This document shows positions 3,058 to 63,857 of a stretch of DNA of 64,000 bases, piece by piece. Made by a program: the position numbers and the translations under genes. Under the pieces are notes generated by a model. That model saw only the letters and a program-made list of their open reading frames with translations. It had not been told where the DNA came from and made no database searches. Source of the DNA: Malacoraja senta (lineage: Eukaryota); contig CM075994.1 of the NCBI GenBank assembly GCA_038087875.1, positions 10,604,001 through 10,668,000 of the forward strand, read 5' to 3'. Numbering within the stretch: the first letter of the stretch is position 1; each line of letters starts with the position of its first letter.

Positions 3058-6000
3058 GTGAGCAGTCGTCGCAGGAGGAGCGAGAGTGTGAACACATGCA
3101 CGGGGGCGGCATAATGGTGGCCGCAGTAGAGCTGCTGCCTCACAGCGTCAGGGACCCAGACTACAGGTGCTGTCTGTGTAAGAGTCTGCAATAGACAATA
3201 GGTGCAGGAGTAGGCCATTTGGCCCTTCGAGCCAGAACCGCCATTCAATGTGATCATGGCTGATCATCCCCAATCAGTACCCCGTTCCTGCCTTCTCCCC
3301 ATATCCCCTGACTCCGCTATCTTTAAGAGCCCTATCTAGCTCTCTCTTGAAAACATCCAGAGAACCGGCCTCCACCGCCCTCTGAGGCAGAGAATTCCGC
3401 AGACTCACAACTCTCTGTGTGTAACGGTGTTTTCTCGTCTCCGTTCTAAATGGCTTACCCCTTATTCTTAAACAGTGTGGCCCCTGGTTCTGGACTCCGC
3501 CAGCATCGGGAACATTGTGACCCTGTGACCGCGTGGGTTTTCTCCGGGTGCTCAGGTTTCCTCCCACACTCCATAGACGTACAGGCTTGTCGGTTAATTG
3601 GCTTGGTATGAATGTAAAAACTAGTCCCAAAGTAAACATGCATGTCCAGCAGACAGTGAAGAAAGCTAATGGCATGTTGGCCTTCATAACGAGAGGATTT
3701 GAGTTTAGGAGCAAAGAGGTCCTTCTGCAGTTGTACAGGGCCCTCGTGAGACCACACCTGGAGTATTGTGTGCAGTTTTGGTCTCCTAATTTGAGGAACG
3801 ACATTCTTGCTATTGAGGGTGTGCTGCGTAGGTTCACCAGGTTAATTCCCGGGATGGCAGGACTGTCATATGCTGAGAGAATGGAGCGGCTGGGCTTATT
3901 TACTCTGGAATTTGTAAGAATGAGAGGGGATGTTATTGAAACATATAAGATTATTAAGGGTTTGGACATGCTAGAGGCAGGAAACATGTTCCCGATGGTA
4001 GGGGAGTCCAGAACCAGGGGCCATAGTTTAAGAATAAGTGGTAAGCCATTTAGAACGGAGATGAGGAAAAACTTTTTCACACAGAGAGTTGTGAGTCTGT
4101 GGAATTCTATGCATCAGAGGGCGATGGAGGCCAGTTCTCTGGATGCTTTCAAGAGAGAGTTAGATAGGGCTCTTAAAGATAGCGGAGTTATCCGGGATAT
4201 GGAGAGAAGGCAGGAACTGGGTACTGATTGTGGATGATCAGCCATGATCACATTGAATGGCGGTGCTGGCTCGAAGGGCCGAATGGCCTCCTCCTGCACC
4301 TATCGTCTAATGTCTTGTATTGCATGTACAGGATAGATAGACACAAAATGCTGGAGTAACTCAGCGGGTCGGGCAGCATCTCTGGAGACAAGGAACAGGT
4401 GACGTTTCGGGTCGAGACCCTTCTTCAGACTGCTTTCGTGGGGTCTGGGACTAGGAAGAGGGCGGGCAGCAGTGAGGGGATGTTGCACAACTCCCGACAG
4501 AGAGAGGAGGAGAACGTCTTCAAAGTCGGCGTACCTTGAGGAGAATTCACGGTGGAACAGGCAAAATATGGAGCAGATTCGTGTTTGGACCGAAGATGGA
4601 CACAAAATGCTGGAGTAACTCAGCGGGTCAGGCAGCATCTCTGGAGAAAAGGAATAGGTGACGTTTCGGGTCGAGACCCTGTCCAGGGAGCCCAGTTCTC
4701 TTAACTCTGCAAGTGGTCTCACTACATTTTAAATAATTCCTCTTTCCTTTTTAATCTTTTTCTTTCTCTTGTTACTCCTCACCGCCCTGCTCTCACATGG
4801 CTCTGTTTGTCCTTGCAGTCTCTCGGGGACGACCTGGCTTGTGCTCAGAAGACCGTGGTTCGGATTCAGGAGAGAGCGGACCAAGCGGACAGTGCTCTGC
4901 GCCAACTGCAGGAGCTAACGTGCAGGTAGGTGGGGGTGATGGGCGACAACGGTGGCGCAAGGGCAGAGTCGCTGCCTCGCAGCGCCAGAGACCCGGGTTC
5001 CATCTTGACCACAGCTGCCGTTTGTACGGAGTTTGTACCTTCTCCCTGTGACCCCGTGGGTTTGCTCCAGGTGCTCCGGTTTCCTCCCACACTCCCAAGA
5101 CGCACAGGTTTGTAGGTTAATTGGCTTGGTATAAATGTTTAAAAAAATTGTCCCCAGTGTGTGCAGGATAGTGTTAATGTGCGGGGATCGCTGGTCGGTG
5201 CTGACTCAGAGGGCCGAAGAAATTGTCGGGAAAAATAATTAGTTGCAAACTAAACCAAAAGATTTTTTTTTACTTTGCCCCCATTCCAAAGACATGCCAA
5301 TTTGTAGGTTGTTTGGCTTCTGTAAATTGTCCCTCATGAGTAGGATAGAATTCATCATCGGAGGTCACTCGAAACGAGTGTGACTGTCCTCTCATGGAGG
5401 ACGCCCCGTGCGTGACTTTGTTTAACGTGGGGAGACTGGTGCCCAGACAGCCACCCCACGGTCCTTGACAGATCTGGGTCAGGATCCAGTGGCATGGAGT
5501 CCAAGACGACCGGAGACCCTTTTCTGCTGCAGCCTTCATCCGCCTTCCCAGCCATTGTGACGCTCCACTGAGGTCAGCCATCGTCCTGCGCCTGTTCCAC
5601 CGTTGAGGTCTTGGTTGGATTGCTCTTTGTCAGAGACCTCCCCCTCGACCTTGCCGTCATGGGTGGCCCTACCAGCAGCATAGCTCCAGGCGGCATCGCT
5701 CTCAGGATCTCAGGTCCACACAAGCTTCTCCACCACGACAAGGTGGCAATCCATGGAGAAGAGGATAGAGCTAGTGACAATAGACAATAGGTGCAGGAAG
5801 AGGCCATTCGGCCCTTCAAGCCAGTACCCGCCATTCATTGTGATCATGGCTGATCGTCCCCAATCAATAACCCGTGCCTGCCTTCTCCCCATATCCCTTG
5901 ATTCCACTAGCCCCTAGAGCTCTATCTAACTCTCTCTTAAATCCATCCAGTGATTTGGCCTCCACTGCCCTCTGTGGCAGGGAATTCCACAAATTCACAA

Positions 6001-9000
6001 CTCTCTGGGTGAAAACTTTTTTCTCACCTCAGTCTTAAATGGCCTCCCCTTTATTCTAAGACCATGGCCCCCTGGTTCTGGAATAAAGCGGAGGCCATTT
6101 AAGACTGATGTGAGAAAAAAACGTTTTCACCCAGAGTTGTGAATTTATGGCATTCCCTGCCAAATCACTGGATGGATTTAAGAGAGAGTTAGATAGAGAC
6201 CCTCCCCCTCGACCTTACCGCCATGGGTGGCCCTACCAGGAGCATCGCTCCAGACGCATCGCTCTCAGGATCTCATGTCCACACAAGCTTCTCCACCACG
6301 ACAAGGTGGCAATCCATGGAGAAGAGGATAGAGTTAGTGCACGGGTGATCGATGGTCAGCATGGACTCAGTGGGCTGAAGGGCCTTTTTCCACACTCTGT
6401 CCGTATATCACTGCACAGCACAACTCATTGCTAACTTCACTTCCCAAATATTACCTCCAAGCAGAGGTCACCTGAACACACCTTACACAGGAGATAGATA
6501 CAAAAAGGTAGACACAAAATGCTGGAGTAACTCAGCGGGTGAGGCAGCATCTCTGGGGGGAAGGAATGGGCGACGTTTCGGGTCGAGTCTGAAGAAGGGT
6601 CTCATTTCTACATTTTCCTTCAGTTGTATCCCCTTTGATATCTTTTCTTCACACCTTACACCTCCTTATCTCTGTGTCTCCCTCTCCCCAACTCTCAGTC
6701 TGAAGAAGGGTCTCGAACCGAAACATCACCTCTGCCTCAGAGGGCGGTGGAGGCCGGTTCTCTGGATACTTTCAAGAGAGAGCTAGATCGGGCTCATAAA
6801 GATAGCGGAGTCAGGGGATATGGGGAGAAGGCAGGAACGGGGTACTGATTGGGGATGATCAGCCGTGATCACATTGAATGGCGGTGCTGGCTCGAAGGGC
6901 CGAATGGTCCGTCTCTGCACCTATTGTCTATTGTCATTTTGTGTCTCCTCTTCGGTGTAAACCAGCATCTGCAGTTCCACCGCACACGTTCTTGCACAGT
7001 CCTCATTGTCCCAGATCGGCACATCCATCCTCAGGAACGGCCATCTTCCCAACGGCCATCAGGCTATTGGACCCTGCGAGCTCCAACTAAACTCCAAACC
7101 ACAAACTGCAGAAAGGGGGAACTGTAGATGCTGGCTTGCACAAAAAAAGGGACACACAAAGTGCCGAGTAACTCGGCAGGTCAGGCGGCCTCATTGACCC
7201 AAGTCTTTGTTTCCCACTTCTGCGACCCTTTAGTTTCTACCAGAAGTTCTTGGCCCAGGAGGCAGAGCTGAGGAAGGCCTTGTGTCAGCTGGTGAACCTG
7301 AGTCAGAGGGTGACCTTCGCCAACAAGCGGATTGATACCATTCACGGTGGGTAGCCTTTCGACGGCCGCTTCGGGAAGTCAACTGCCTTGGGAAGGGAAG
7401 GAAGAAAGGAGGACCCGGAGAGGGGGGGGGGGGGGGGGGGGTGGGGGATGGGATCGCCGTGTGGGAGGGGGAAGATAATGGGGACCCAGGCGTGACGGAG
7501 GGGGGAGAACAATGGAAGACCTATTGCGGCCTGGCGCTCACGGTGGCGCAGCGGTAGAGTTGCTGCCTCACAGCGAATGCAGCGCCGGAGACCTGGGTTC
7601 GATCCCGACTACGGGTGCTGTCTGTACGGAGTTTGTACGTTCTCCCCGTGACCTGCGCGGGTTTTCTCCGAGATCTTCGGGCTTCCTCTCACACTCCAAA
7701 GACGTGCGGTGTGTAGGTGAATTGGCTTGGTAAATGTAAACATTGTCCCTAGTGGGCGTAGGATAGTGTTAATGTGCGGGGATCGCTGGTCGGCTGTTGG
7801 TGGAGTCCCAGAACCAGGGGCCACAGTTTAAGAATAAGGATTAAGCCATTCAGAACGTAGATGAAGAAACACTTTTTCACAGAGAGAGTTGTGAGTCTGT
7901 GGAATTCTCTGCCTCAGAGGGCGGTGGAGGCCGGTTCTCTGGATACTTTCAAGAGAAAGCTAGATAGGGCTCTTGAAGATAGCTGAGTCAGGGGAATATG
8001 AGGAGATGGCAGGAACAGGGTACTGATTGTGGGATGATCAGCCCATCTGTGGAATTCTCTGCCACAGAAAGTAGTTGAGGCCAGTTCGTTGGCTATATTG
8101 AAGAGGGAGTTAGATGTGGCCCTTGTGGCTAAAGGGATCAGGGGGTATGGAGAGAAGGCAGGTACAGGATACTGAGTTGGATGATCAGCCGTGATCATAT
8201 TGAATGGCGGTGCAGGCTCGAAGGGCCGAATGGCACCTATTTTCTATGTTTCTATGATCACAGTGAATGGCGGTACTGGCTTGATGGGCCGAATGGCCAA
8301 CTCCTGCACCTTTTGTCTATTGACAACCAGGTCCTGAACTATTATCTACTTCATCGGTGACCCTCGGGACTATTCTCGATCTGACATTACCGGCTTTATC
8401 TTGCACGAAACGTTATTCGCTATCAGGTATCTGTGCACAGTAAATGGCTGGATTGTAATCATGTGTTGTCTTTCCGCTGACTGGATAGCACACGACAAAA
8501 GCTTCTCACTGTGACTCGGTACACGTGACAGTAAGCTAAACTGAAGTGAAAGTGAGCTATGCCCTTGAGTTGTAGACTCCCCTGCCCTGGGTTAGTGACA
8601 GTGATTGGGTAAACAGGTGAAAGTGTCGCCCGTGTCAGGAGGAGTTGGCATTGCATCGCGGGCACCATTGTCATGGCTTCTGTCTTGCTCTCACTAGGGT
8701 TATGGGCTCGGAAGGAGGCCCTCGTCCGTCTTAATCTGCAGGAGAGAAGCAGAGAGCCGGGGCCGACATCGGCAGGTTGGTACCATGCCTGGGCGACTGT
8801 GCCCCTTCCGCTTAACCCGCCCCATCTTGCCAACCAAGATGTTTAAGAAAGAACTGCAGATGCTGGAGAAAATCGAAGGTAGACAAAAATGCTGGAGAAA
8901 CTCAGCGGGTGAGGCAGCATCTGTGGAGCCAAGGAATAGGTGACGTTTCGGGTCGAGACCCTTCTTCAGACCGATGTGGGGGTGGGGGGGGAGCAGAAAG

Positions 9001-16629: not shown

Positions 16630-19600
16630 AAATAAAATACTTCCCCCTAGTCCCATCTACCTGCACTCAGACCATAACCCTCCATTCCTTTCCCGTCCAT
16701 ATACCCATCCAATCTATTTTTAAAGGATAACATCGAACCTGCCTCCACCACTTCCACTGGAAGCTCATTCCACACAGCTACCACTCTCTGAGTAAAGAGG
16801 TTCCCCCTAATGTTCCCCCTAAACTTCTGTCCCTTAATTCTCAAGTCATGTCCCCTTGTTTGAATCTTCCCTACTCTCAATGGGAAAAGCTAATCCACGT
16901 CCACTCTGTCTAACCCGCTCATAATTTTAAAGACCTCTATCAAGTCCCCTCTTAACCTTCTGCGCTCCAAAGAATAAAGACCTAACTTGTTCAACCTTTC
17001 TCTGTAACTTAGTTGCTGAAACCCAGGCAACATTCTAGTAAATCTCCTCTGTACTCTCTCTATTTTGTTGACATCCTTCCTATAATTAGGCGACCAAAAT
17101 TGTACTCCATACTCCAGAATTGGCCTCACCAATGCCTTGTACAATTTTAACATTACATCCCAACTTCTATATTCAATGCTCTGATTTATAAAGGCCAGCA
17201 CACCAAAAGCTTTCTTTACCACCCTATCTACATGAGATTCCACCTTCAGGGAACTATGCACAGTTATTCCTAGATCCCTCTGTTCAACTGCATTCCTCAA
17301 TTCGCTACCATTTACCGTGTACGTCCTATTTTGATTTGTCCTGCCGAGATGTAGCACCTCACATTTGTCAGCATTAAACTCCATCTGCCATCTTTCAGCC
17401 CACTCTTCCAAATGGCCTAAATCTCTCTGTAGACTTTGAAAATCTACTTCATTATCCACAACACCACCTATCTTAGAATCATCTGCATACTTACTAATCC
17501 AATTTTCCACACCTTCATCCAGATCATTGATGTACATGACAAACAACAGTGGACCCAACACAGACCCCTGAGGCACCCCACTAGTCACCGGCCTCCAACC
17601 TGACAAACAGCCATCCACCATTACTCTCTGGCATCTCCCATTCAGCCACTGTTGAATCCATCTTGCTACTCCACCATTAATACCCATCAATTGAATCTTC
17701 TTAACCAACCTTCCATGAGGAACCTTGTCAAAGGCCTTACTGAAGTCCATATAGACAACATCCACTGCTTTACCCTCATCAATTTCCCTAGTAACCTCTT
17801 CGAAAAATTCAAGAAGATTAGTCAAGCATGACCTTCCAGGCACAAATCCATGTTGACTGTTCCTAATCAGACCCTGCTTATCCAGATGCTTATATATATT
17901 ATCTTTAAGTATCCTTTCCATTAATTTGCCCACCACTGACGTCAAACTAACAGGTCTATAATTGCTAGGTTTACTCTTCGAACCCTTTTTAAACAACGGA
18001 ACAACATGCGCAGTACGCCAATCCTCCGGCACTATTCCCGTTTCTAATGACATTTGAAATATTTCTGTCATAGCCCCTGCTATTTCTACACTAACTTCCC
18101 TCAATGTCCTAGGGAATATCCTGTCAGGACCTGGAGACTTATCCGTTTTCATATTTTTCAAAAGTGTCCGCACCTCCTCTTCTTTGAATCTCACAGTTTC
18201 CATTGCTACTCTGCTCGTTTCCCTTACCTCACATAATTCCATATCCTTCTCCTTCGTGAATACCGAAGAAAAGAAATTGTTCAATATCTCCCCCATCTCT
18301 TTTGGCTCTGCAGATAGCTGTCCACTCTGACTCTCTAATGGACCGATTTTATTCCTCGTTATCCTTTTGCTATTAATATAGCTGTAGAAACCCTTTGGAT
18401 TTACTTTCACCTTACTTGCCAAAGCAACCTCATATCTTCTTTTAGCTTTTCTAATTTCTTTCTTAATATTCTTTTTACATTCTTTATACTCCTCAAGCAC
18501 CTCATTGACTCCATGCTGCCTATAATTATAGATACATAGATACATAGAAAATAGGTGCAGGAGTAGGCCATTCGGCCCTTCGAGCCTGCACCGCCATTCA
18601 ATACGATCATGGCTGATCATCCAACTCAGTATCCCGTACCTGCCTTCTCTCCATACCCCCTGATCCCTTTAGCCACAAGGGCCACATCTAATTCCCTCTT
18701 AAATATAGCCAATGAACTGGCCTCAACTACCCTCTGTGGCAGAGAGTTCCAGAGATTCACCACTCTCTGTGTGAAAAAGTTTTTCCTCATCTCGGTCTTA
18801 AAGGATTTCCCCCTTATCCTTAAGCTGTGACCCCTTGTCCTGGACTTCCCCAACATCGGGAACAATCTTCCTGCATCTAGCCTGTCCAACCCCATAAGAA
18901 TTTTGTACGTTTCTATAAGATCCCCTCTCAATCTCCTAAATTCTAGCGAGTATAAGCCAAGTCTATCCAGTCTTTCTTCATATGAAAGTCCTGACATCCC
19001 AGGAATCAGTCTGGTGAACCTTCTCTGCACTCCCTCTATGGCTATAATGTCCTTCCTCAGATTTGGAGACCAAAACTGTACGCAATACTCCAGGTGTGGT
19101 CTCACCAAGACCCTGTACAACTGCAGTAGAACCTCCCTGCTCCTATACTCAAATCCTCTTGCTATGAAGGCCAACATACCATTCGCTTTCTTCACTGCCT
19201 GCTGCACCTGCATGCCTACTTTCAATGACTGGTGTACCATGACACCCAGGTCTCGCTGCATCTCCCCATTTCCTAATCGGCCACCATTTAGATAATAGTC
19301 TGCCTTCCCGTTTTTGCTACCAAAGTGGATAACCTCACATTTATCCACATTATACTGCATCTGCCAAACATTTGCCCACTCACCCAGCCTATCCAAGTCA
19401 CCTTGCAGTCTCCTAGCATCCTCCTCACAGCTAACACTGCCCCCCAGCTTAGTGTCATCCGCAAACTTGGAGATGTTGCTTTCAATTCCCTCGTCCAGAT
19501 CATTAATATAAATTGTAAATAGCTGGGGTCCCAGCACTGAGCCTTGCGGTACCCCACTAGTCACTGCCTGCCATTGTGAAAAGGACCCGTTTACTCCTAC

Positions 19601-22600
19601 TCTTTGCTTCCTGTTTGCCAGCCAGTTCTCTATCCACATCAATACTGAACCCCCAATACCGTGTGATTTAAGTTTGTATCCTAATCTCTTATGTGGTACC
19701 TTGTCGAAAGCCTTCTGAAAGTCCAGATACAACACATCCACTGGTTCTCCCCTATCCACTCTACTAGTTACATCCTCGAAAAATTCTATGAGATTCGTCA
19801 GACACGATTTACCTTTCGTAAATCCATGCTGACTTTGTCCAATGATTTCACCACTTTCCAAATGTGCTGCTATCCCATCTTTAATAACTGACTCTAGCAG
19901 TTTCCCCACTACCGATGTTAGACTAACTGGTCTGTAATTCCCCGTTTTCTCTCTCCCTCCCTTCTTAAAAAGTGAGGTTACGTTTGCTACCCTCCAATCC
20001 TCAGGAACTACTCCAGAATCTAAAGAGTTTTGAAAAATTATCACTAATGCATCCACTATTTCTGGAGCTACTTCCTTAAGTACTCTGGGATGCAGCCTAT
20101 CTGGCCCTGGTGATTTATCTGCCTTTAATCCATTCAATTTACCCAACACCACTTCCCGACTAACCTGGATTTCACTCAGTTCCTCCATCTCCTTTGACCC
20201 GCGGCCCCCTGCTATTTCCGGCAGATTATTTATGTCTTCCTTAGTGAAGACGGAACCAAAGTAGTTATTCAATTGGTCTGCCATATCCTTGTTCCCCATG
20301 ATCAATTCACCTGTTTCTGACTGCAAGGGACCTACATTTGATTTAACTAATCTCTTTCTCTTCACATATCTATAAAAACTTTTGCAGTCAGTTTTTATGT
20401 TCCCTGCCAGTTTCCTTTCATAATCTATTTTCCCTTTCCTAATTAAGCCCTTTGTCCTCCTCTGCTGGTCTCTGAATTTCTCCCAGTCCTCTGGTATGCT
20501 GCTTTTTCTGGCTAATTTGTACGCATCATCTTTTGCTTTGATACTATCCCTGATTTCCCTTGTTATCCACGGATGCACTACCTTCCTTGATTTATTCTTT
20601 TGCCAAACTGGGATGAACAATTTTTGTAGTTCATCCATGCAGTCTTTAAATGCCTTCCATTGCATATCCACCGTCAACCCTTTTAGAACTAATTGCCAGT
20701 CAATCTTGGCCAATTCACGTCTCATTATTGTAGATCTCTCTCTTTTTCCGAACCAAGTGTCCAATTTCCCTTGAAAACCATGGCTCTTTCCATTTTTTAC
20801 TATTTCCTTTCAACCGAACAGGGACATAAAGATTCTGTACTCTTAAAATTTCACCCTTAAATGTCCTCCATTTTTCTTCTACATCCTTCCCATAAAACAA
20901 CGTGTCCCAATTCACTCCTTTTAAATCCTTTCGCATCTCCTCAAAGTTAGCCTTTCTCCAAACATAAATCTCAACCCCTTAAGAATTTTGTAAGTTTCTA
21001 TAAGATCCCCCCTCAATCTTCTAAATTCTAGCGAGTACAAGCCGAGTCTATCCAGTCTTTCTTCATATGAAAGTCTTGCCATCCCAGGAATCAGTCTGGT
21101 GAACCTTCTCTTTACTCCCTCTATGGCAAGAATGTCTTTCCTCAGATTAGGAGACCAAAACTGTACGCAATACTCCAGGTGTGGTCTCACCATGTATGGT
21201 CTAATGTATATAGACACACTGAACTTGTATCTCCCGTTCTGTACCATGTTGACATATTCTGTAGTGCTGCAGCAAAGCAAGAATTTCATTGTCCTATCTG
21301 GGACACATGACAATAAAACTCTCTTGACTTGACTCGACTTGTTCCCCCGCAGCGCTGCAGGAGAAGATGGCGGCGGCGGAGAGCCTCATGGCCGAGCAGC
21401 TGTCGGAGATGGAGAAGCATCTGAACGAGGCCCGCAGGGAGCACGCCAAGGCTGGTGAGTGGGACCCCCTCCTCCAGGGGGATGGTGAACCAGTGGTGGA
21501 ATAGCTCCCCGTCCCACTCCCTCAGCCACCTCCGCCCCACCCTCCCCCATGGACCAACATTCTCAGTTCATCTCCCGCATCTTGTTCATACCTTCCCCTT
21601 CCCTCCACTCCTCTGCCCCTCATCTCCCTCTTCCCTCAGCCCCTCCAAGGCCGACCCTGCCGAGAGCCCTGTGCAGGAAAGAACTGCAAATGCTGGTTTT
21701 AAATCGAACATAGACGCAAACACGCGGCACAGGCAGCACCTCTGAGGATCATTCAGTCTCTCTGAGGATCCTTCAGTCCTTCTACTCTGGGGCTGTAGAA
21801 AGCATCTTGTCCGGCAACATCACAAACTGGTTTGGGAACAGCTCAGTCCAGGACAAGAAGGCCCTGCAGAGAGTAGTGCATTCGGCCGAACGCACCACGG
21901 GAACTACACTCGCCCCCCCCTGCAGGACCTATACACCAGGAGGTGCAGATCCAGAGCTAGCAACATTATGGGGGACCCCTACCCCCCCAGCAACGGACTG
22001 TTCCAGCTGCTACGGTCAGGCAAACGCCTCCGCTGTCACGCTGTGAAAACAGAGAGGATGAGACGGAGTTTCTTCCCACAGGCCATCAGGACTGTAAACT
22101 CTGATCTCACTAGGGACTCATTTACTGTTGTTTTGTGTCTTTTTTAAAGTGCAGGTTTTTTTTTCTAATAATCTAAATACTGGTTCTGTTCTGTTCTGTT
22201 CTGTTTGCACAATCCGCAAACATTGCCACTTTCATTTCACTGCACGTCTTGTGATAAATAAACTTGACTTGACTGCTGGAGAGAAGGAATGGGTGACGTT
22301 TCGGGTCGAGACGGGTCTGAAGTAGGATCTCGACCCCAAAACGTCGCTCCATTCCCTCTCTCTCCAGAGACGCTGCCTGTCCCGCTGAGTTACTCCGGCA
22401 TTTTGTGTCTTATCTTCAACCAAGAGTCTCCGCTCTTCACTCGAGAGCCGATTCCTGATTTCATCAGTTCCTCCCTGACGGCCCTTCCGACGGTTGTCCA
22501 AGCCCCCCAGCCTCCAACATTGCCCACACCTACCTCCCCCCCCTCTCCCCCCCACACCCCCCCACGCATCCTCCTCGTGCCTCCCCTTCACCCTCCCCAC

Positions 22601-34671: not shown

Positions 34672-36509
34672 TCATTTGAAAGAACTTTGCAAGTCCTTGA
34701 TGATCTGCTTTGATTTTTCCGTCGCCAGCGTGTCGCTTTTGCAAGCCATGTTGTGGAGGATGAGCTTGATGGAGCGCCCAAGTTCAACGTAGAACCTCTC
34801 GGGGTCCTTGTTTTTCTTGTGGATCTCCCCCCCGCAGTGCAGGCCAACCACGCGGCCGTCAGCGTTGAAGATGGGAGAGCCGAGGCGGCGTGGTGGAAGT
34901 CAGCTTTGTAGAGGATTGTATTGGGTACCTGGCTCTGTTGAAGGCGTGGCTGGCCACCATGACCATGTCGGGCAGGTAGTTCTCGGCATCTCCGCGGCGA
35001 TGGCTGCCCGCAGGTTTTCCAGCAGGTTGGCGGAGTCCCCTGCTGCCTGCTGGTCGCAACTCATGACTGAGCAAGGGCACACTTTCTTCACCTGCCCGTC
35101 GGGGTGGCCGGCGATGTAGAGGTTGCCGGCTTCTGGCGGCAGCAGGGCGCAGTGCTCCGCCAGCCCCTGCACCCGGGCGGGCTCTCCTGCAACTCCAGCA
35201 TGGCGTAGTCCAGGGCCTGGTCGAAGATCTCCAGCCAGGCGGCCAGCTTGAGCGGCCGGCCCCTCTGCCCGTCTTCCTCGTAGCCGAAGTAGACCTGGCC
35301 GGCGTCGCGGACGGCGGCGGCCAGCTGTCGGGCGGCGAGCTCCCCGCCATCATCTCCACGGCGTGGTAGGAGGTGAGCAGGTACCTGTCCCCTCAGGAAG
35401 AAGCAGCCTGCCTCCTCCCTGGGCGCTGGGCGTTTTGCCAGCTGAGGCAGCCCACGCTGGCCAGGCGGTCGATCACACGGCGGATGGCCTCTGGCCGGGA
35501 TGGGCGACTGGGCCTCCTGGTGCAGCCGGTCAAGTACTGCCTCTCCGACATGTTGCCCAGCTCGGCGTTCCTGGAGACGGCCAGCTTGAACCTGAGCAGC
35601 GCGGCCTTGCGGGCCTCCACATGCCACCGGGGCAAGGGGGTAACGCCCGCTGTCCGGGCGGTGGCAGCGGCACGGCAACGCCTCGGCTGCCCTGCCGGCT
35701 CTCTGCTTCCAGTTCTTGCCGCTGCCGCTCCCGTCGTCTCCTCCCGGCAGCTTCTTCCTGTAGCTGCTCATCTCCACCTGGAAGCTGCGGCCGTTCAGCC
35801 CGTCCACGGCGTGGTTGAACTGGAACTTGCGCGGGGCGGCTCCACCTTCTCCAGCAGCTTGTGGGGTTGTCGTCGTGGGACGCGGGGGTCGAGCGGCCGT
35901 CGGCGGCCAGCGCCTGGCGGACGGTCTGGCCCTCAAAGCCCAGGACGCACAGCTTGGTCTGGCCTGGGCGATGCGGTCGGACAGCACAATGCGCTGGGCG
36001 GTGTTGACCACCGTGCGGCCGCTGGGCTCCACGTAGAACAGGACGTGGCGGAGTCGCGGCGGGTGGCCGGGGGTCACACGCCCCTCGTCCCGCCCCGGGC
36101 CCGGGCCAGCGCAGGAAGAGCAGGCGAAAGTGCGTGTGCTTGCGGCAGGTAGCGGCACGGGATGTCCGCGTTCACCAGGCCCTTCAGTCCCGCCCTCCCC
36201 GTACACCAGGATGGTGCTGTCCACCCTCACCTTCTCCTCGAAGTCGCAGGAGGAACTGAGGGCGGTGATCAGGGCGTCGTCGGGATCGCCGGTGAAGGCG
36301 TACTGGATGTTGTCGGGTCCCCGCACACGCTGAAGGTGGAACTCCTTCCTCGCCAAGCTCTCCGCCCCGCAGTCCATCTGCTCGGCGGAGTTCTTCAGGA
36401 TCTTCCCGTTCTTCGGCACAAACTCCTCCGCGTACGCTGGCTGCTGCAGCTTTCGCTTGTCTCCGGGAGACCGTCGCTCGTCATTTGCCCCCCTGCTGCC
36501 CTTCTTCAG
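34672..36509 (-). CDS. FAM111: FAM111-family trypsin-like serine protease, large terminal exon (about 610 codons, several 1-bp frameshifts in this assembly)
   Basis: Acceptor ttttctgtcttcgcag|CTG at 36509. Frame-stitched motifs are ASVGCLSW, CFFLR.RYLLTSYHAV (His 35363-35365), VYFGYEE, WLEIFDQALDYAMLEL (Asp 35208-35210), LYIAGHPDGQVKKVCPC, YKADFHHAASGSPIFNADGRVVGLHCGG (Ser 34881-34883) and FYVELGRSIKLIL, then TGA at 34672. These match recalled FAM111A motifs (LTCRHV, TFGYEE, ELDYAVLKL, IIGHPYGEKK, GASGSPVF). Functional versus pseudogene status is unresolved. Confidence 0.88.
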
Positions 36510-36850
36510 CTGCGAAGACAGAAAATAAAAATGTGTCATGAATCAACCTTATGTCATCTTGCAAAGCAACAGTTGTACAGGGCAAATTGAGAAGACGTTT
36601 CCCAGGGAATACCAGAGCATCGCACACAAAACTTAAACATTTCACACATAAATAAAAACAATCCAGTCCCTGATAAAAACAGTAGGAATAGTAAAACATA
36701 GAAACATAGAAAATAGGTGCAGGAGTAGGCCATTCGGCCTTCGAGCCTGCACCGCCATTCAATATGATCATGGCTGATCATCCAACTCAGTATCCTGTAC
36801 CTGCCTTCTCTCCATACCCCTGATCCCTTTAACCACAAGGGCCACATCTA

Positions 36851-38450
36851 CAGTGGCTTGCAAAAGTATTCATACCCCTTGAACTTTTCCACATTTTGTC
36901 ACATTACAACCACAAACGTAAATGTATTTTTATTGGGATTTTATGTGATAGACCAACACAAAGTGGTGCATAATTGTGAAGTGGAAGGAAAATGATACAT
37001 GGTTTTCAAATTTTTTTACAAATAAAAACTGAAAAGTGTGGCGTGCAAAAGTATTCAGCCCCCTGAGTCAATACTTTGTAGAACCACCTTTCGCTGCAAT
37101 TACAGCTGCAAGTCTTTTGGGGTATGTCTCTACCAGCTTTGCACATCTAGAGACTGAAATTTTTGCCCATTCTTCTTTGCAAAATAGCTCAAGCTCAGTC
37201 AGATTGGATGGAGAGCGTCTGTGAACAGCAATTTTCGTCTTGCCAGAGATTCTCAATTGGATTTAGGTCTGGACTTTGACTGGGCCATTCTAACACATGA
37301 ATATGCTTTGATCTAAACCATTCCATTGTAGCTCTGGCTGTATTTTAGGGTCGTTGTCCTGCTGGAAGGTGAACCTCCGCCCCAGTCTCAAGTCTTTTGC
37401 AGACTCTAACAGGTTTTCTTCCAACATTGCCCTGTATTTGGCTCCATCCATCTTCCCATCAACTCTGACCAGCTTCCCTGTCCCTGCTGAAGAAAAGCAT
37501 CCCCACAGCATGATGCTGCCACCACCATGTTTCACAGTGGGGATGGTGTGTTCAGGGTGATGTGCAGTGTTAGGTTTCCGCCACACATAGCGTTTTGCAT
37601 TTAGGCCAAAAACTTCAATTTTGGTCTCATCTGACCAGAGCACCTTCCTCCACATGTTTGCTGTGTCCCCCACATGGCTTGTGGCAAACTGCAAACGGGA
37701 CTTCTTATGGCTTTTTTTCAACAATGGCTTTCTTCTTGCCACTCTTCCATAAAGGCCCGATTTGTGGAGTGCACGACTAATAGTTGTCCTGTGGACAGAT
37801 TCTCCCACCTGAGCTGTGGATCTCTGCAGCTCTCCATAGTTACATGGGCCTCTAGGCTGCTTCTCTGATCAATGCTCTCCTTGCCCGGCCTGTCAGTTTA
37901 GGTGGACGGCCATGTCTTGGTAGGTTTGGAGTTGTGCCATACTCTTTCCATTTTCGGATGATGGATTGAACGTGAGATGTTCAAAGCTTGGGATATTTTT
38001 TTATAACCTAACCTGCTTTAAACTTCTCCACAACTTTATCCCTGACCTGTCTGGTGTGTTCCTTGGGCTTCATGATGCTGTTTGTTCACTAATGTTCTCT
38101 AACAAACCTCTGAGGCCTTCACAGAACAGCTGTATTTATACTGAGATTAGATTACACACAAGTGGACTCTATTTACTAATTAGGCGACTTCTGAAGGCAA
38201 TTGGTTGCACTGGATTTTATTTAGGGGTATCAGAGTAAAGGGGCTGAATACTTTTGCACGCGACACTTTTCAGTTTTTTATTTGTAAAAATATTTGAAAA
38301 CCATGTATCATTTTCCTTCCACTTCACAATTATGCTCCACTTTGTGTTGGTCTATCACATAAAATCCCAATAAAATACATTTACGTTTGTGGTTGTAACG
38401 TGACAAAATGTGGAACAGTTCAAGGGGTATGAATACTTTGCAAGCCACTG
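36851..38450 (-). mobile_element. Passport-like Tc1 DNA transposon, 1.6 kb, frameshifted transposase (about 37068-38073)
   Basis: About 210-bp TIRs starting CAGTGGCTTGCAAA, TA on both sides, inserted in a CR1 tail; MKPKEHTRQVRDKVVEKF, WSDETK, QQDNDPK, AAKGGSTKY. Confidence 0.95.
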
Positions 38451-54835: not shown

Positions 54836-55445
54836 TCCCAGGTGGAGGTAGAGGTTCACGTGCACCTCCTCAAACCTCATCTACTGTATCCGCTGTTCCA
54901 GGTGTCAACTTCTCTACATCGGCGAGATCAGAGTGCAGGCTCGGCGATCGTTTCAATGAACACCTCCACTCAGTCCGTTTTAACCTACCGGTGGCTCAGC
55001 ACTTTAACTCCCCCTCCCCCCCATTCCCACACTGACCTTTCTGTCCTGGGCCTCCTCCATTGTCAGCAAAGATCTTAGAGCGGAGCTCTAGGGGCTAGAT
55101 CTAAGATCTTTGATCGTCAGAGTGAGGCCCAGCACAAATTGGAGGAACAGCACCTCATATTTCGCTTGGGTAGTTTACACCCAGCGGTATGAACATTGAC
55201 TTCTCTAACTTCAGATAGCCCTTGCTTTCTCTCTCTCTCTCTCTCTCCCATTCCCAGTTCTTCCACTAGTCTTACTGTCTCCAACTACATTCTATATTTT
55301 TTCCGTCCCCTCCCCCGACATCAGTCTGAAGGATTTCGACCCAAACGTCGCCCATTCCTTCTCTCAGGGATGCTGCCTCACTCGCTGAGTTACTCCAGCA
55401 TTTGTTCTACCTTCGATTTAAACTAGCATTTGCAGTTCTCTTACA
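54836..55445 (+). mobile_element. Older Penelope 3' fragment interrupted by a 46-bp MITE
   Basis: GIY-YIG-region homology to 51270-51590; degenerate hammerhead at about 55326. Confidence 0.8.
55067..55112. mobile_element. 46-bp hAT-like MITE
   Basis: Perfect 13-bp TIR CAAAGATCTTAGA; 8-bp flanks ATTGTCAG/ATCGTCAG. Confidence 0.8.
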
Positions 55446-58400: not shown

Positions 58401-58753
58401 TTCAACCACAGACAGTTCAAGTTAAGAGTACAAAGTTTAAGAACAGGATCAAGGTCAAAGCAAAATTTTGCTGGATTCGAGGTTGTCTGGCAAACTTGTT
58501 GGACACCAGGCACAATGGTACTGGAATTGCAAATATCCCCTCTCCGCGAGAAATAATGAGCGAAAACAAACACTGGTTAAATTCAGTAGCAAATCAGTCA
58601 TCTGGCTTTCTATACCCAACAATAAATTTGTAGAGATGGTCCCATATCAGATTTACAAACATTCACTGGGCAAGACTGTGGGATGATTTGTGGTTAGAGT
58701 TAAGGATACAAAGCAGGTGGCATGATGAGGAAAGCAGATTGAAACTTCTAAGG

Positions 58754-59172
58754 CAGGGGTTGGCAACCTTGTTCTGCATAGGGGCCGGGACGCATGTTTG
58801 TGAGCGGATGGCGGGCCACATCTATCACGCGTACACATGGATTCCGCCCCTTCGAGGACGCCACTCATACTCGCTCGTTCCCGGCCTATTGACATCCCCG
58901 ACCAAAGATCGTAGAGCGGATCTTTGATCCCGACAGTGAAGCCGAGACAAAGAAGGTGCGTGGCCGTGCTAGCGGCTGCGCGCAGGATGCGGTACAGCCA
59001 GAGCTCGGTGCTGCTCGACGGCAGCTCCGCCATCGCATCACCACGACCTCGTGAGGTACGAAACGATGGAAGTCTGCGTACCGGATAATTACGGGGGGGG
59101 GGGGGGGGGGGGGGGGGGGAGAAGCCTGCGGGCCGGATTCGGCCCGGGGGCCAAAGGATGCCGACCCCCCCA
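58754..59172. mobile_element. Non-autonomous hAT (Charlie-like ends) carrying a CYB561D-like coding fragment (minus, about 58930-59033)
   Basis: Ends CAGGGGTTGGCAAC / GATGCCGACCCC; flanks TTCTAAGG/TTCGAAGG; internal MAELPSSSTELWLYRILRAAASTATHLLCLGFTV. Confidence 0.75.
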
Positions 59173-59404
59173 TTCGAAGGTGACCAGAGCAATCAATGAC
59201 TTGGTATGAAAGCGAAGTACCCCAAATGAGAAATAAAAAGCATTGTGACATACCAACAATCGAATGCAGGGCAGAATTTGTGGGGTTTATTGAAAGGGGG
59301 GGGGTGGGGATTTAAGTCCCACCAACAAAGTACACAATGTTTTCTGTAAGTGTCGGCCAAAATAAGACTGGTTCATTGGAATCCGAATTATCTACCACCG
59401 AGAT

Positions 59405-59980
59405 TAGAGGTCGGCAAACCTTTCTGCCAAGGGCCGGACATGTCTGTGAGCGGATGGCGGGCACATCTATCACGCGTACACATGGATCCTGCCCCGGATG
59501 GCCGGCATCAAACCAGGTGTTCACATAGATCCCGCCCCTTCGAGGACGCACTGGCCCCCAGTTACGGGCGCTCGCCAACATGGCTCACCCACGGACCATT
59601 GCCTTGGCTACGTCCTGAAGGCGGTGGCTCGAATACTTACACTCACTCGTCCCCGGCCTACTGACAACCCCGATCCCGACAGTGAAGCCCAGACACAGAA
59701 GGCGCCGTGCGGCGGCTTTGCGCAGGATGCGGGACAGCCAAATCACATTCCAGGTTCTGGAGGTAGGGGAAAAAAAATGGTGGAAAAACTTCTAAAACAT
59801 GTTTTTTCTTTCTACCATCGATTATTCCAGCATCTGCAGTTCTTTGTTAAACATTCCAGGTACCGAGATGGCGGACGTCTGCGGACCTGGGATGATTGAG
59901 GGGGAAAAAAAACAAAAAACAAAACGCCTGTGGTTACGGGCCGGATTCGGCCCGGGGGGGCCGTAGGTTGCCGACCCCTG
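59405..59980. mobile_element. Second, diverged copy of the same hAT family with a decayed CYB561D-like fragment
   Basis: Ends TAGAGGTCGGCAAAC / GTTGCCGACCCCTG; shared internal GATCCCGACAGTGAAGCC.AGACA.AGAAGG...GCGCAGGATGCGG.ACAGCCA. Confidence 0.72.
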
Positions 59981-60543
59981 ACCTAGGCACTAACGATTGG
60001 GCAAGGTGACTTCACATGCCCAGCAACAGAATGACTGTGCAAATCATTGATCTCACGATCTCCGTGTTTCCATTCACTGATGTCAAATTAGTATCATTGA
60101 AGTGTTTGCCAGAAACCATCAGCATATCCAATGTTTGCCCAGCCCAGTATTGCCAAACCAACCACACAGCTGTACTAAAGATGTATCTAATGACCTGATA
60201 CAGGGGGAAAAATGGCTCAGAAACAGTCAAAACAAAGACTTGAGGAATACTGCAGCACAGGGCTCGAGTTCACCACAGGAGTTGAGGGCAGTCTAAATTT
60301 ATACTTGCACTGCGCATGGATATTGGATTTACAGATCAGAAAGAGCCCACATCTGTCTGATCTGTAGTAGGCTCCCCGGCTTCCACTGGTGGCTGGGTTC
60401 ACTCATCTGAATGATTGAGACTTAAAGTTTCTAGTTGGCTCCCTCCCTCTTCCCCCCCCCCCCCCCATGTAAAATGTGCAACATTCTTGTCCCTTCCTCA
60501 GATTTGATCGCATCCGATTAATAAGCCACTTTCAAATCATTAA

Positions 60544-60834
60544 AGGGCCTGTCCCACTTGGCGATTTTTTTTCGGCGACTGCCGGCATCGTTGACTGACG
60601 TATCAGGTCACGCAAAATACGCGGCGTGATGACGATTTTTTCAGCGACTGCCGGCATCATTGACTGACGTATCAGGTCACCGGAAAATACGCGACGTATG
60701 ACGCGCAGTGTTTTTTTCAAGTGTCGCAACATTTTTTTGTTGCCGCTGGATTTTTGAAATGTTCACAATCTTTCGGCGACACTGATACGACGTCGGTAGT
60801 CGCCGAAAAAAAATCACCAAGTGGGACAGGCCCT
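60544..60834. mobile_element. PIF/Harbinger-type MITE
   Basis: TIR AGGGCCTGTCCCACTTGG.GATTTTTTTTCGGCGACT; TAA on both sides; internal tandem duplication. Confidence 0.85.
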
Positions 60835-61101
60835 TAAAGCTTCCAAACTACACAGCCAATTTCAATTCGTATGCGTATGTGGGGCTTGGGATAATAATTT
60901 ACTCTGACCTGGGATGGTGGCTCGGGCTTTGGCATTGATGGGGACATTATGGACGTTACTCATCAAATTGGCCAGCGTTTTGTCACGGGCGGTGATTTTA
61001 AACTCGAGCCCTGCAAGAGCCCACGGAATTTGCTAAAATGACACAATTTAAAGGATGCTTTTATGTACAGGATGAAGGGATGACCATGGATTTTTTTAAT
61101 T

Positions 61102-62160
<1,059 letters not shown>

Positions 62161-62950: not shown

Positions 62951-63754
62951 CATCTATAGACACCTCACTGTCACATCGCTGCAAACAAGTTATTTTTTTA
63001 CAAAAACCATCAGCCAACATATTAACAAAACTGTTGCTTCACAGTTCCTGTGACTTGGGATCAATGCTGCCTTCCAGTGCTCCGTGGAACGTCCATATGT
63101 TCTTGAATGAATACGTTTATTGGCCAAGTATTCACATACAAGGAATTTGCCTTGGTGCTCCGCCCGCAAGTGACAGCATGACATAGTGACAGTTAGGAAT
63201 GACACATAAAAACATTAATAATAAAACATTATCGATTAAACATGTGAATTAAATAAAATACCTGAGCAAAAGGAGGCTACAGGTTTTTGGTTATTGAGTA
63301 GAGCAACTACTTGTGGAAAAAAACAGTTTTTGTCTGTCTGTGGCAGCTTTGACAGTCCGGAGTCGCCTTCCAGAGGAAGTGATTCAAAGAGTTTGTGGCC
63401 AGGGTGAGAGGGTCAGATATGATCTTACGCGCTCGCTTCCTGGCCCTTGCAGTGTACAGTTCGTCAAGGTTCTCAGCTGATGGAGAAGGTGAGGACAGAC
63501 TCTACGATGGCCGTATAGAATTGGACCATCATTGCATGTGGTAGATTGTGCTTCCTCAGCTGCCGCAGGAAGTACATCCTCTGTTGTGCCTTTTTGACTG
63601 TGGAGTCGATGGTAGCCCCCACTTAAGGTCCTTGGAGATGATGATTCCCAGGAACTTAAAAGACTCCACAGATGTGACTGTGGTGTTGTTGCTGGTGTGG
63701 GGTGAGGGGGAGCTCTCCTAAAGTCTACAATCAAAATTCCACTGTCTTAGGAGC

Positions 63755-63857
63755 ATTGAGAATCTTAAGAGCATGGAAAATCTTAAGAGCATTGAAAATC
63801 TTAAGAGCATGGAAAATCTTAAGAGCATTGAAAATCTTAAGAGCATTGAAAATCTTC
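63755..63857. repeat. 18-bp tandem repeat (AAAATCTTAAGAGCAT[TG]G), about 5.5 units
   Basis: Directly visible. Confidence 0.9.

What the first reader, a model, noticed from the sequence alone, without database searches (positions are those of the whole stretch)
58754..59980. Pack-hAT element carrying a captured CYB561D1/D2-like first-exon fragment, in two copies
Seen: two adjacent hAT-type elements with CAGGGGT-type ends and different degenerate 8-bp flanks (TTCTAAGG/TTCGAAGG; ACCGAGAT/ACCTAGGC). Both contain a minus-strand segment encoding, in the first copy, MAELPSSSTELWLYRILRAAASTATHLLCLGFTV. This aligns to the recalled N-terminus of human CYB561D2 ([26 protein letters not shown]) and stops abruptly without a splice donor. 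Inference: a DNA transposon captured a host 5' UTR plus start-codon fragment and then kept transposing. Multi-copy gene-capturing TIR elements are well known in plants but less often described in vertebrates.
Basis: partly seen in the sequence, partly recalled or inferred. Interest (0 to 1): 0.72.

Follow-up and report, generated by a model that had tools for sequence, protein, structure and literature searches.

The report
Skate/ray transposon spreading a host exon
In a skate-like fish, a small cut-and-paste transposon picked up the first coding exon of an ordinary gene (CYB561D2) together with its splice signal and scattered it to probably thousands of places, a scale rarely reported for this kind of element in vertebrates, though the two copies here are broken and no function is shown.

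Summary
Confirmed, with two corrections. Two non-autonomous hAT (Charlie-like) elements, 58754-59172 and 59405-59980, have different 8-bp target duplications (7/8 and 5/8). Each carries CYB561D2 coding sequence on the minus strand (profile hit to stingray CYB561D2, E 4e-14; 25/29 and 29/32 residues identical to a skate-type protein). No later exon lies in the window.

Correction 1: the cargo does not stop without a donor. It runs to the true exon end and its donor (GTGAGT in copy 2; GCGAGT in copy 1, behind a frame-shifting insert), so it was captured from DNA, not from mRNA.

Correction 2: it is not a two-copy curiosity. Contigs of two probable whole-genome runs lie on the exon about 1,600-6,500 times deeper than on unique flanks. 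80 and 103 different contigs join the left end to other sites, with the hAT target consensus. Summed contig depth is only a rough ruler: over 100 copies at the least, probably thousands.

Both copies are decayed and appear to predate the split from related species. Multicopy Pack-TIRs are rare in a published animal survey (4 cases); bat Helitrons are the precedent for this scale. The scan had not noted this family; it had one single-copy rotifer case of the same kind.

The parts
58746..58753 (+). Left target-site duplication of E1 (TTCTAAGG)
   Evidence: 7 of 8 match to 59173-59180
58754..59172 (+). Element E1: non-autonomous hAT, about 419 bp; intact left terminal repeat, decayed right one, G run at about 59094-59119
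   Evidence: 80 (X1) and 103 (X2) contigs join this left end to other flanks
58875..59033 (-). E1 cargo: CYB561D2 first coding exon from the ATG (59033) to the exon's last base (58875); three extra codons near the start and a frame-shifting insert
58869..58874 (-). E1 splice donor, decayed to GCGAGT
58903..58929 (.).
   Evidence: same ends as an insert at 55067-55115
59055..59092 (-). Segment upstream of the exon shared with E2 (59858-59898); host 5' UTR/promoter or transposon interior, origin untested
   Evidence: pairwise alignment
59173..59180 (+). Right target-site duplication of E1 (TTCGAAGG)
59286..59291 (-). AATAAA between the two elements; the only AATAAA on the minus strand from the beta-tubulin stop down to 58000, so possibly that gene's poly(A) signal
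   Evidence: its use is inferred, not shown
59397..59404 (+). Left target-site duplication of E2 (ACCGAGAT)
   Evidence: 5 of 8 match to 59981-59988
59405..59980 (+). Element E2: non-autonomous hAT, 576 bp; decayed left terminal repeat, intact right one
59470..59640 (-). Interior between the left end and the donor, CpG-rich; captured intron and/or transposon sequence; E1 is deleted for two parts of it
   Evidence: variable deletions among other copies (joints); origin untested
59641..59646 (-). E2 splice donor GTGAGT, phase 1, at the true end of the exon
   Evidence: six database proteins depart from CYB561D at the same place with SE or SK
59647..59745 (-). E2 cargo: CYB561D2 first coding exon, codons about 9-42, with a 6-nt deletion; start codon region lost
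59746..59861 (.). Secondary 96-nt insertion (59756-59851) ending in a very high-copy SINE-like tail, with a perfect 10-nt duplication (59746-59755 / 59852-59861)
   Evidence: the SINE label is recalled, not from a call
59981..59988 (+). Right target-site duplication of E2 (ACCTAGGC)

Best explanation
E1 and E2 are two old, independent insertions of one abundant non-autonomous hAT family of the Charlie-like type in a batoid fish, probably a skate. An ancestral element took in a piece of genomic DNA from the CYB561D2 locus: the whole first coding exon, its splice donor and probably some flanking DNA on both sides. The most likely route is template switching during gap repair or replication (inferred). 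An autonomous hAT transposase then moved the loaded element in trans (inferred), giving hundreds to thousands of copies at NTCTAGAN-like sites. Each copy has since decayed separately by CpG transitions, deletions and nested insertions. The cargo is a passenger; these two copies cannot make a CYB561D2 protein. Shown: homology, exon end and donor, absence of later exons in the window, distinct target duplications, many other insertion sites of the left end, large excess of contig depth on the exon. Inferred: capture mechanism, mobilising transposase, copy number beyond an order of magnitude, lack of function.
For: Homology. Exon boundary. No downstream exon: residues 43-221 of P0017 give no tblastn hit at E<=0.1. 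Other sites: 80 (X1), 103 (X2) and 12 (X8) contigs have unrelated loose ends before 58754 (agreement 0.40-0.48), with consensus ending TCTAGAC, TTTAGAC or TCTAGAT; this fits the hAT target NTCTAGAN (PMC2836564; PMC3014272 Table 1). Depth: bin 59640-59693 is 128,298 (X1) and 164,477 (X2) against unique flanks of 19.7-31.5 and 56-104, ratios 4,073-6,513 and 1,578-2,916; 64,298 at position 59701 inside the exon in X1. Other copies link exon to ends: X2 record 10 runs from the left end into the exon with 24 other letters; 4 (X1), 11 (X2) and 1 (X8) of the listed contigs join the exon's 5' part to the right end. At 59733, 24 (X1) and 40 (X2) contigs, 98% of the depth, carry the letter that gives the parent's tyrosine, so E2's change is private. 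C>T plus G>A make up 63 of 102 changed places in X1, and CpG observed/expected is 0.87-0.94 in the elements against 0.19-0.43 in flanks and spacer: decay of a captured CpG-rich piece.
Against: The tool states that summed contig depth is no copy number. Short overlapping contigs can inflate it (mean record 68-72 letters; up to 31-fold in the worst case). The exon-to-right-end joints have only 21-25 letters on the short side, under the tool's 30-letter caution. Depth is uneven along the cargo: the ATG bin of E1 is only 302-483-fold (X1) and 59046-59099 has none in X1, so many copies may lack or differ in the ATG region. The left end is 3-4 times deeper than the exon, so most elements with this end may not carry it. 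The parent locus and an autonomous partner were not seen. E2's target duplication is only 5 of 8.
Confidence: 0.82

Rival explanations
1. The same kind of element, but the exon-bearing subfamily is small (tens to about a hundred copies); the high depth is an artefact of summing short overlapping contigs.
For: The tool's own caveat; mean contig length about 70 letters; only 24-66 distinct contigs support listed variant letters in the cargo in X1; ATG-side depth is low.
Against: Ruler: the SINE-like tail has 8 copies at 80% or more over 42+ nt in this 64-kb window. That is about 340,000 for a 2.75-Gb skate genome (size from PMC12361510) if the window is typical, yet its depth ratio is only 59,000-94,000, so the method shows no inflation there. 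The exon bin is 4.8-6.9% of the SINE bin in both runs. Even a 31-fold inflation leaves about 130 copies in X1 (about 50 in X2).
Confidence: 0.12
2. E1 and E2 come from a local tandem duplication, or from two separate gap-filling captures into resident elements with no later transposition (the usual route for single-copy animal Pack-TIRs).
For: The two copies lie 232 bp apart in the same orientation, and there is no other copy in the window. PMC8277862 finds gap filling for most animal Pack-TIRs.
Against: Different target duplications and unrelated flanks; about 80-88% identity with different deletions; many other exon-bearing contigs. With 5,000 copies in 2.3 Gb about 3 such close pairs are expected by chance, with 20,000 about 43, with 500 only 0.03.
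Confidence: 0.03
3. This is the real CYB561D2 gene (or a processed pseudogene of it) with transposon pieces beside it.
For: E1 has an ATG and 36 codons in frame; RefSeq models of two skates lack this exon.
Against: No later exon in the window; frameshift in E1, lost start and deletion in E2; a full-length skate-type protein exists elsewhere (P0017). The donor is kept and exon 2 is absent, which excludes an mRNA copy.
Confidence: 0.01

Closest known systems
Multicopy Pack-TIRs of animals, e.g. Pack-hAT-N8_XT of Xenopus tropicalis (Tan et al. 2021, PMC8277862; abstract, three sections, passages and one supplement search read)
   Same: Non-autonomous hAT ends around a short host-gene 5' piece; distinct target duplications show repeated transposition; GC-rich cargo.
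   Different: Only 4 multicopy cases were found, and the frog example has three copies of a 5' UTR piece; here a coding exon with its donor reaches hundreds to thousands. My supplement search for shark and skate found only the elephant shark (0 Pack-TIRs). Their pipeline starts from annotated consensus ends and asks for a unique parent hit, so it would probably miss a family whose cargo is part of the repeat consensus (my inference).
HelibatN3 and other gene-capturing Helitrons of Myotis bats (Thomas et al. 2014, PMC4224331; passages read)
   Same: Promoter/5' UTR, first exon and part of the first intron of a host gene (NUBPL) amplified to about a thousand copies; 5' gene pieces reach the highest copy numbers; one copy supplies a splice site to a host transcript.
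   Different: Rolling-circle elements without terminal inverted repeats or 8-bp duplications; here the carrier is a cut-and-paste hAT.
Non-autonomous hAT families of Anolis (hAT-HT1/2/3 N families; hobo_AC derivatives; Novick et al., PMC3014272; passages and part of one section read)
   Same: 14-16-bp CAGGGG/CAGTG termini, NTCTAGAN duplications, hundreds to over a thousand copies; hobo_AC families took in extraneous genomic DNA.
   Different: The filler described is old transposon fragments; the word 'exon' has 0 occurrences in that paper.
Pack-MULEs and Pack-hAT of plants (PMC8903248, search listing only); mammalian MER58/Cheshire hAT-Charlie elements (recalled, not from a call)
   Same: Plant Pack elements: capture and spread of GC-rich 5' gene pieces. 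MER58: the two ends look alike, from memory.
   Different: Plant host; MER58 is not known to me to carry gene cargo, and the likeness was not tested.

Membership tests
Non-autonomous hAT (Charlie-like) | Short terminal inverted repeats of the YAGGG type | tested here: met
   15-nt ends; two intact (0-1 mismatch), two decayed (3 mismatches)
Non-autonomous hAT (Charlie-like) | 8-bp target-site duplication | tested here: met
   E1 7 of 8; E2 5 of 8, weak alone
Non-autonomous hAT (Charlie-like) | NTCTAGAN target preference | tested here: met
   Consensus of 80, 103 and 12 loose ends at 58754 ends in TCTAGAC / TTTAGAC / TCTAGAT
Non-autonomous hAT (Charlie-like) | No transposase of its own | tested here: met
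   419 and 576 bp; three of the frames over them were scanned and gave no Pfam family
Non-autonomous hAT (Charlie-like) | Autonomous partner with the same ends | not testable with these tools
   No genome held; no Repbase or Dfam
Pack-TIR (Tan et al. 2021) | Host non-TE sequence over 100 bp between both ends of one TIR element | tested here: met
   About 130 nt of exon plus donor in E1, about 100 nt in E2
Pack-TIR (Tan et al. 2021) | DNA-level capture, not a retrocopy | tested here: met
   Donor kept, no exon 2
Pack-TIR (Tan et al. 2021) | Parent copy elsewhere, not flanked by TIRs, at least 90% identical in DNA | not testable with these tools
These old copies may fall below the 90% working cut-off.
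Multicopy Pack-TIR | Copies at different sites with different target duplications | tested here: met
   Two in the window; many more contigs. Whole copies with both flanks were not seen outside the window.
Helitron | No terminal inverted repeats and no target duplication | tested here: not met
   Both are present
Functional CYB561D2 gene | Open frame and downstream exons with the cytochrome b561 domain | tested here: not met

The most novel reading that the evidence does not exclude
A cut-and-paste hAT spread thousands of CpG-rich 'start codon plus splice donor' cassettes from one housekeeping gene through skate genomes, and some are in use: as alternative first exons or cryptic donors in other genes, or as sources of RNA and methylation that act back on CYB561D2. 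E2 itself may sit in sense orientation in the 3' UTR of a beta-tubulin gene. That would be the TIR-transposon counterpart of bat Helitron exon spreading.
Probability: 0.2. Interest if true: 0.78.

Novelty: new variant of a known kind. Interest (0 to 1): 0.52.

Why it matters
Gene-capturing TIR transposons in animals are reported as mostly single-copy repair accidents, with only four multicopy cases among those found in 100 genomes. A hAT family carrying a complete coding exon at hundreds to thousands of copies suggests that such families exist in vertebrates and stay hidden because the cargo is absorbed into repeat consensus sequences. It gives a testable set of natural exon-insertion events. 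It may also explain why the RefSeq CYB561D2 models of two skates lack this exon (repeat masking; inferred).

Tried and rejected
No whole genome is held, so copies could not be counted and the parent locus could not be aligned. ESM Atlas gave only a 0.75 hit, uninformative. The top hit among the representatives (P0018, a 499-aa repeat protein, E 1.4e-08) matches the window only at E>=0.025 and was set aside as unrelated; of the other 16, those with names or clear sequence are CYB561D1/D2. A search for short proteins read through into the intron found none, so the origin of 59470-59640 is open. Metagenome and viral collections gave nothing. Rfam: one match at E 0.5, chance. No RNA holder was listed on record. 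Run X24 laid one contig and says nothing. Holes in X2 and X8 (59316-59423; 58560-58721) are not evidence of absence. Weak tblastn matches of the C-terminal part (E>=0.005) recur at many places in the window and were rejected as repeat noise. Literature: 9 searches listed no description of this family; 'CYB561D2' with 'transposon' gave 2 unrelated papers. Repbase, Dfam and subscription journals were not searchable, and the family may exist there as an unannotated repeat. bioRxiv supplements were not seen.

Full report
Observation. The window holds two related elements in the same orientation, E1 (58754-59172) and E2 (59405-59980), 232 bp apart, with no third copy. Their shared parts are about 79-88% identical. 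The 8-bp flanks match 7 of 8 for E1 and 5 of 8 for E2 (chance 0.0004 and 0.027). E1's left and E2's right end are intact 15-nt inverted repeats; the other two have 3 mismatches.

The cargo. A profile of the two minus-strand peptides found one protein among 661 candidates: stingray CYB561D2, E 4.3e-14. Against 17 family members, the best match was a full-length skate-type protein P0017 (25/29 for E1, 29/32 for E2). Other batoids were close behind, sharks were lower, and two fish CYB561D1 proteins matched much less well. So the host is a batoid, and a skate on a margin of one or two residues. Shuffled peptides scored at most 60 and 50 against 129 and 132 (2000 shuffles each). Residues 43-221 have no hit in the window at E<=0.1, so this is not the gene itself.

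The exon end. In E2 the next letters are GTGAGT (59646-59641). In E1 a 26-nt net palindromic insert shifts the frame after codon 36; the exon resumes and ends in GCGAGT. Six database proteins chosen from the 17 hits leave the CYB561D sequence at the same point with SE or SK, as expected from reading into a phase-1 intron. The cargo is therefore the whole first coding exon with its donor, taken from DNA. E2 has lost the start codon region, has a 6-nt deletion, and carries a 96-nt insertion with a perfect 10-nt duplication.

Copy number. No genome was held, so I laid contigs of four of the 24 listed public runs on 58560-60160 at 80% likeness. X1 is the best holder (organism A); X2 is organism B. 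Neither has its library on record; I treat them as whole-genome DNA because they cover the unique flanks evenly. Unique flanks have depth 19.7-31.5 (X1) and 56-104 (X2). The left end reaches 374,739 and 679,846, and the bin with the exon's 3' half and donor 128,298 and 164,477, that is 4,073-6,513 and 1,578-2,916 times the flanks. The 5' half is lower (915-1,464 plus 457-731 in X1) and the ATG bin lower still (302-483). The tool warns that summed depth is no copy number: overlapping short contigs inflate it, while the 80% cut-off and partial reading (88 and 74 in 100) deflate it. As a ruler, the SINE-like tail in E2 has 8 copies in this window, which would be about 340,000 in a 2.75-Gb skate genome (PMC12361510, passages read) if the window is typical, but gives only 59,000-94,000 by depth. 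I conclude over 100 copies in organism A in the worst case, and probably thousands.

Independent signs of mobility. 80 (X1), 103 (X2) and 12 (X8) contigs leave the left end at 58754 into unrelated sequence, and their consensus ends in TCTAGAC, TTTAGAC or TCTAGAT. This is the NTCTAGAN target known for hAT elements (PMC2836564, passages; PMC3014272 Table 1). Diverged contigs link the left end to the exon (X2 record 10), and 16 listed contigs join the exon to the right end, though with only 21-25 letters on the short side. These tables were cut to their best-supported rows. The left end is 3-4 times deeper than the exon, so exon-free relatives probably exist.

Age and decay. X2 contigs join both ends of E1 and the right end of E2 to the same flanks (24-25 element letters, under the tool's 31-letter standard; flanks 3-10% diverged). 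An X8 contig bridges E2's right end with 49 letters (7% diverged). Both insertions thus appear older than these species splits. C>T and G>A are 63 of 102 changed places in X1, and the elements are CpG-rich against their flanks. At 59733 the family majority has the parent's tyrosine codon, where E2 has a private change. X1 contigs differ from the window mostly by gaps, so single-base indels in the window may be assembly errors.

Mechanism. Most likely one capture by template switching into a hAT element, then amplification in trans by an autonomous transposase, then neutral decay. The capture step and the transposase are inferred; Tan et al. (PMC8277862) propose gap filling for single copies and fork switching plus transposition for multicopy cases. 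Nothing here shows a function.

Context. A beta-tubulin last exon ends at 61102 on the minus strand. The only AATAAA below it down to 58000 is at 59286-59291, between E1 and E2, but weaker hexamers lie nearer the stop. Run X8 (RNA by one guess, probably DNA by another) covers 59470-59865 and 59932-60160 at depth 332-386. This fits E2 lying in the tubulin 3' UTR, but contigs cannot show strand or ends, so it is a weak hint. The RefSeq CYB561D2 entries of Leucoraja erinacea (171 aa) and Amblyraja radiata (163 aa) lack this exon, while P0017, identical to the former over 171 residues, has it. Masking of a repeated exon would explain this; an assembly gap would too, and a manta ray isoform also lacks it.

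Comparison. It passes the tested features of a non-autonomous hAT and of a multicopy Pack-TIR; the parent-locus and autonomous-partner tests could not be run. Tan et al. found only 4 multicopy cases, the frog example with three copies, and no Pack-TIR in the elephant shark. Bat Helitrons spread a first exon to about a thousand copies (PMC4224331), and Anolis hobo elements carry filler DNA. Nine literature searches listed no account of this family. The scan's notes hold nothing on it by sequence or place, and one single-copy rotifer case by words.

Verdict. Real, and larger than reported: a known kind of event at an unusual scale for a vertebrate TIR element, with rough copy numbers and no function shown. 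New variant of a known kind; interest 0.52.

Noticed in passing
window 55067-55115 and 58903-58929 (related pieces near 30639, 57090): Tiny palindromic inserts with the same ends; the 49-nt one interrupts another repeat with a 5-nt duplication, and the other copies of that repeat are uninterrupted. Possibly a very small mobile or templated-insertion family.
   Followed up: partly
window 61102-62160, minus strand: Last exon of a beta-tubulin gene with several single-base frameshifts; probably assembly indel errors, since X1 contigs differ from the window nearby mainly by gaps. A pseudogene is not excluded.
   Followed up: partly
window 59270-61102, minus strand: Possible 1.8-kb tubulin 3' UTR containing E2 with its cargo in sense orientation; weak support from run X8.
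   Followed up: partly
P0006, P0014 (RefSeq proteins): CYB561D2 models of two skates lack the first coding exon that this family amplified; possibly lost to repeat masking.
   Followed up: partly
joints 59851-59854 to 58951 or 59710: Contigs in X1 and X2 join a SINE-like tail directly to the middle of the exon at a few times single-copy depth: other copies with nested insertions.
   Followed up: no
window 16890-20809, minus strand: Two long reverse-transcriptase frames back to back (592 and 727 aa); further RT pieces near 28.2 kb and 50.1 kb, and a Tc1-type transposase piece at 37290-37868.
   Followed up: no
window 63745-63852: Tandem array of an 18-bp unit, about 6 copies.
   Followed up: no
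window 60540-60838: Element of about 300 bp with 52-nt inverted ends and an internal 45-nt direct repeat; a MITE-like insert between E2 and the tubulin stop.
   Followed up: no
window 35088-36542, minus strand: GC-rich 484-aa stop-free frame with no Pfam match; looks like a frameshifted coding region or a transposase relic.
   Followed up: no
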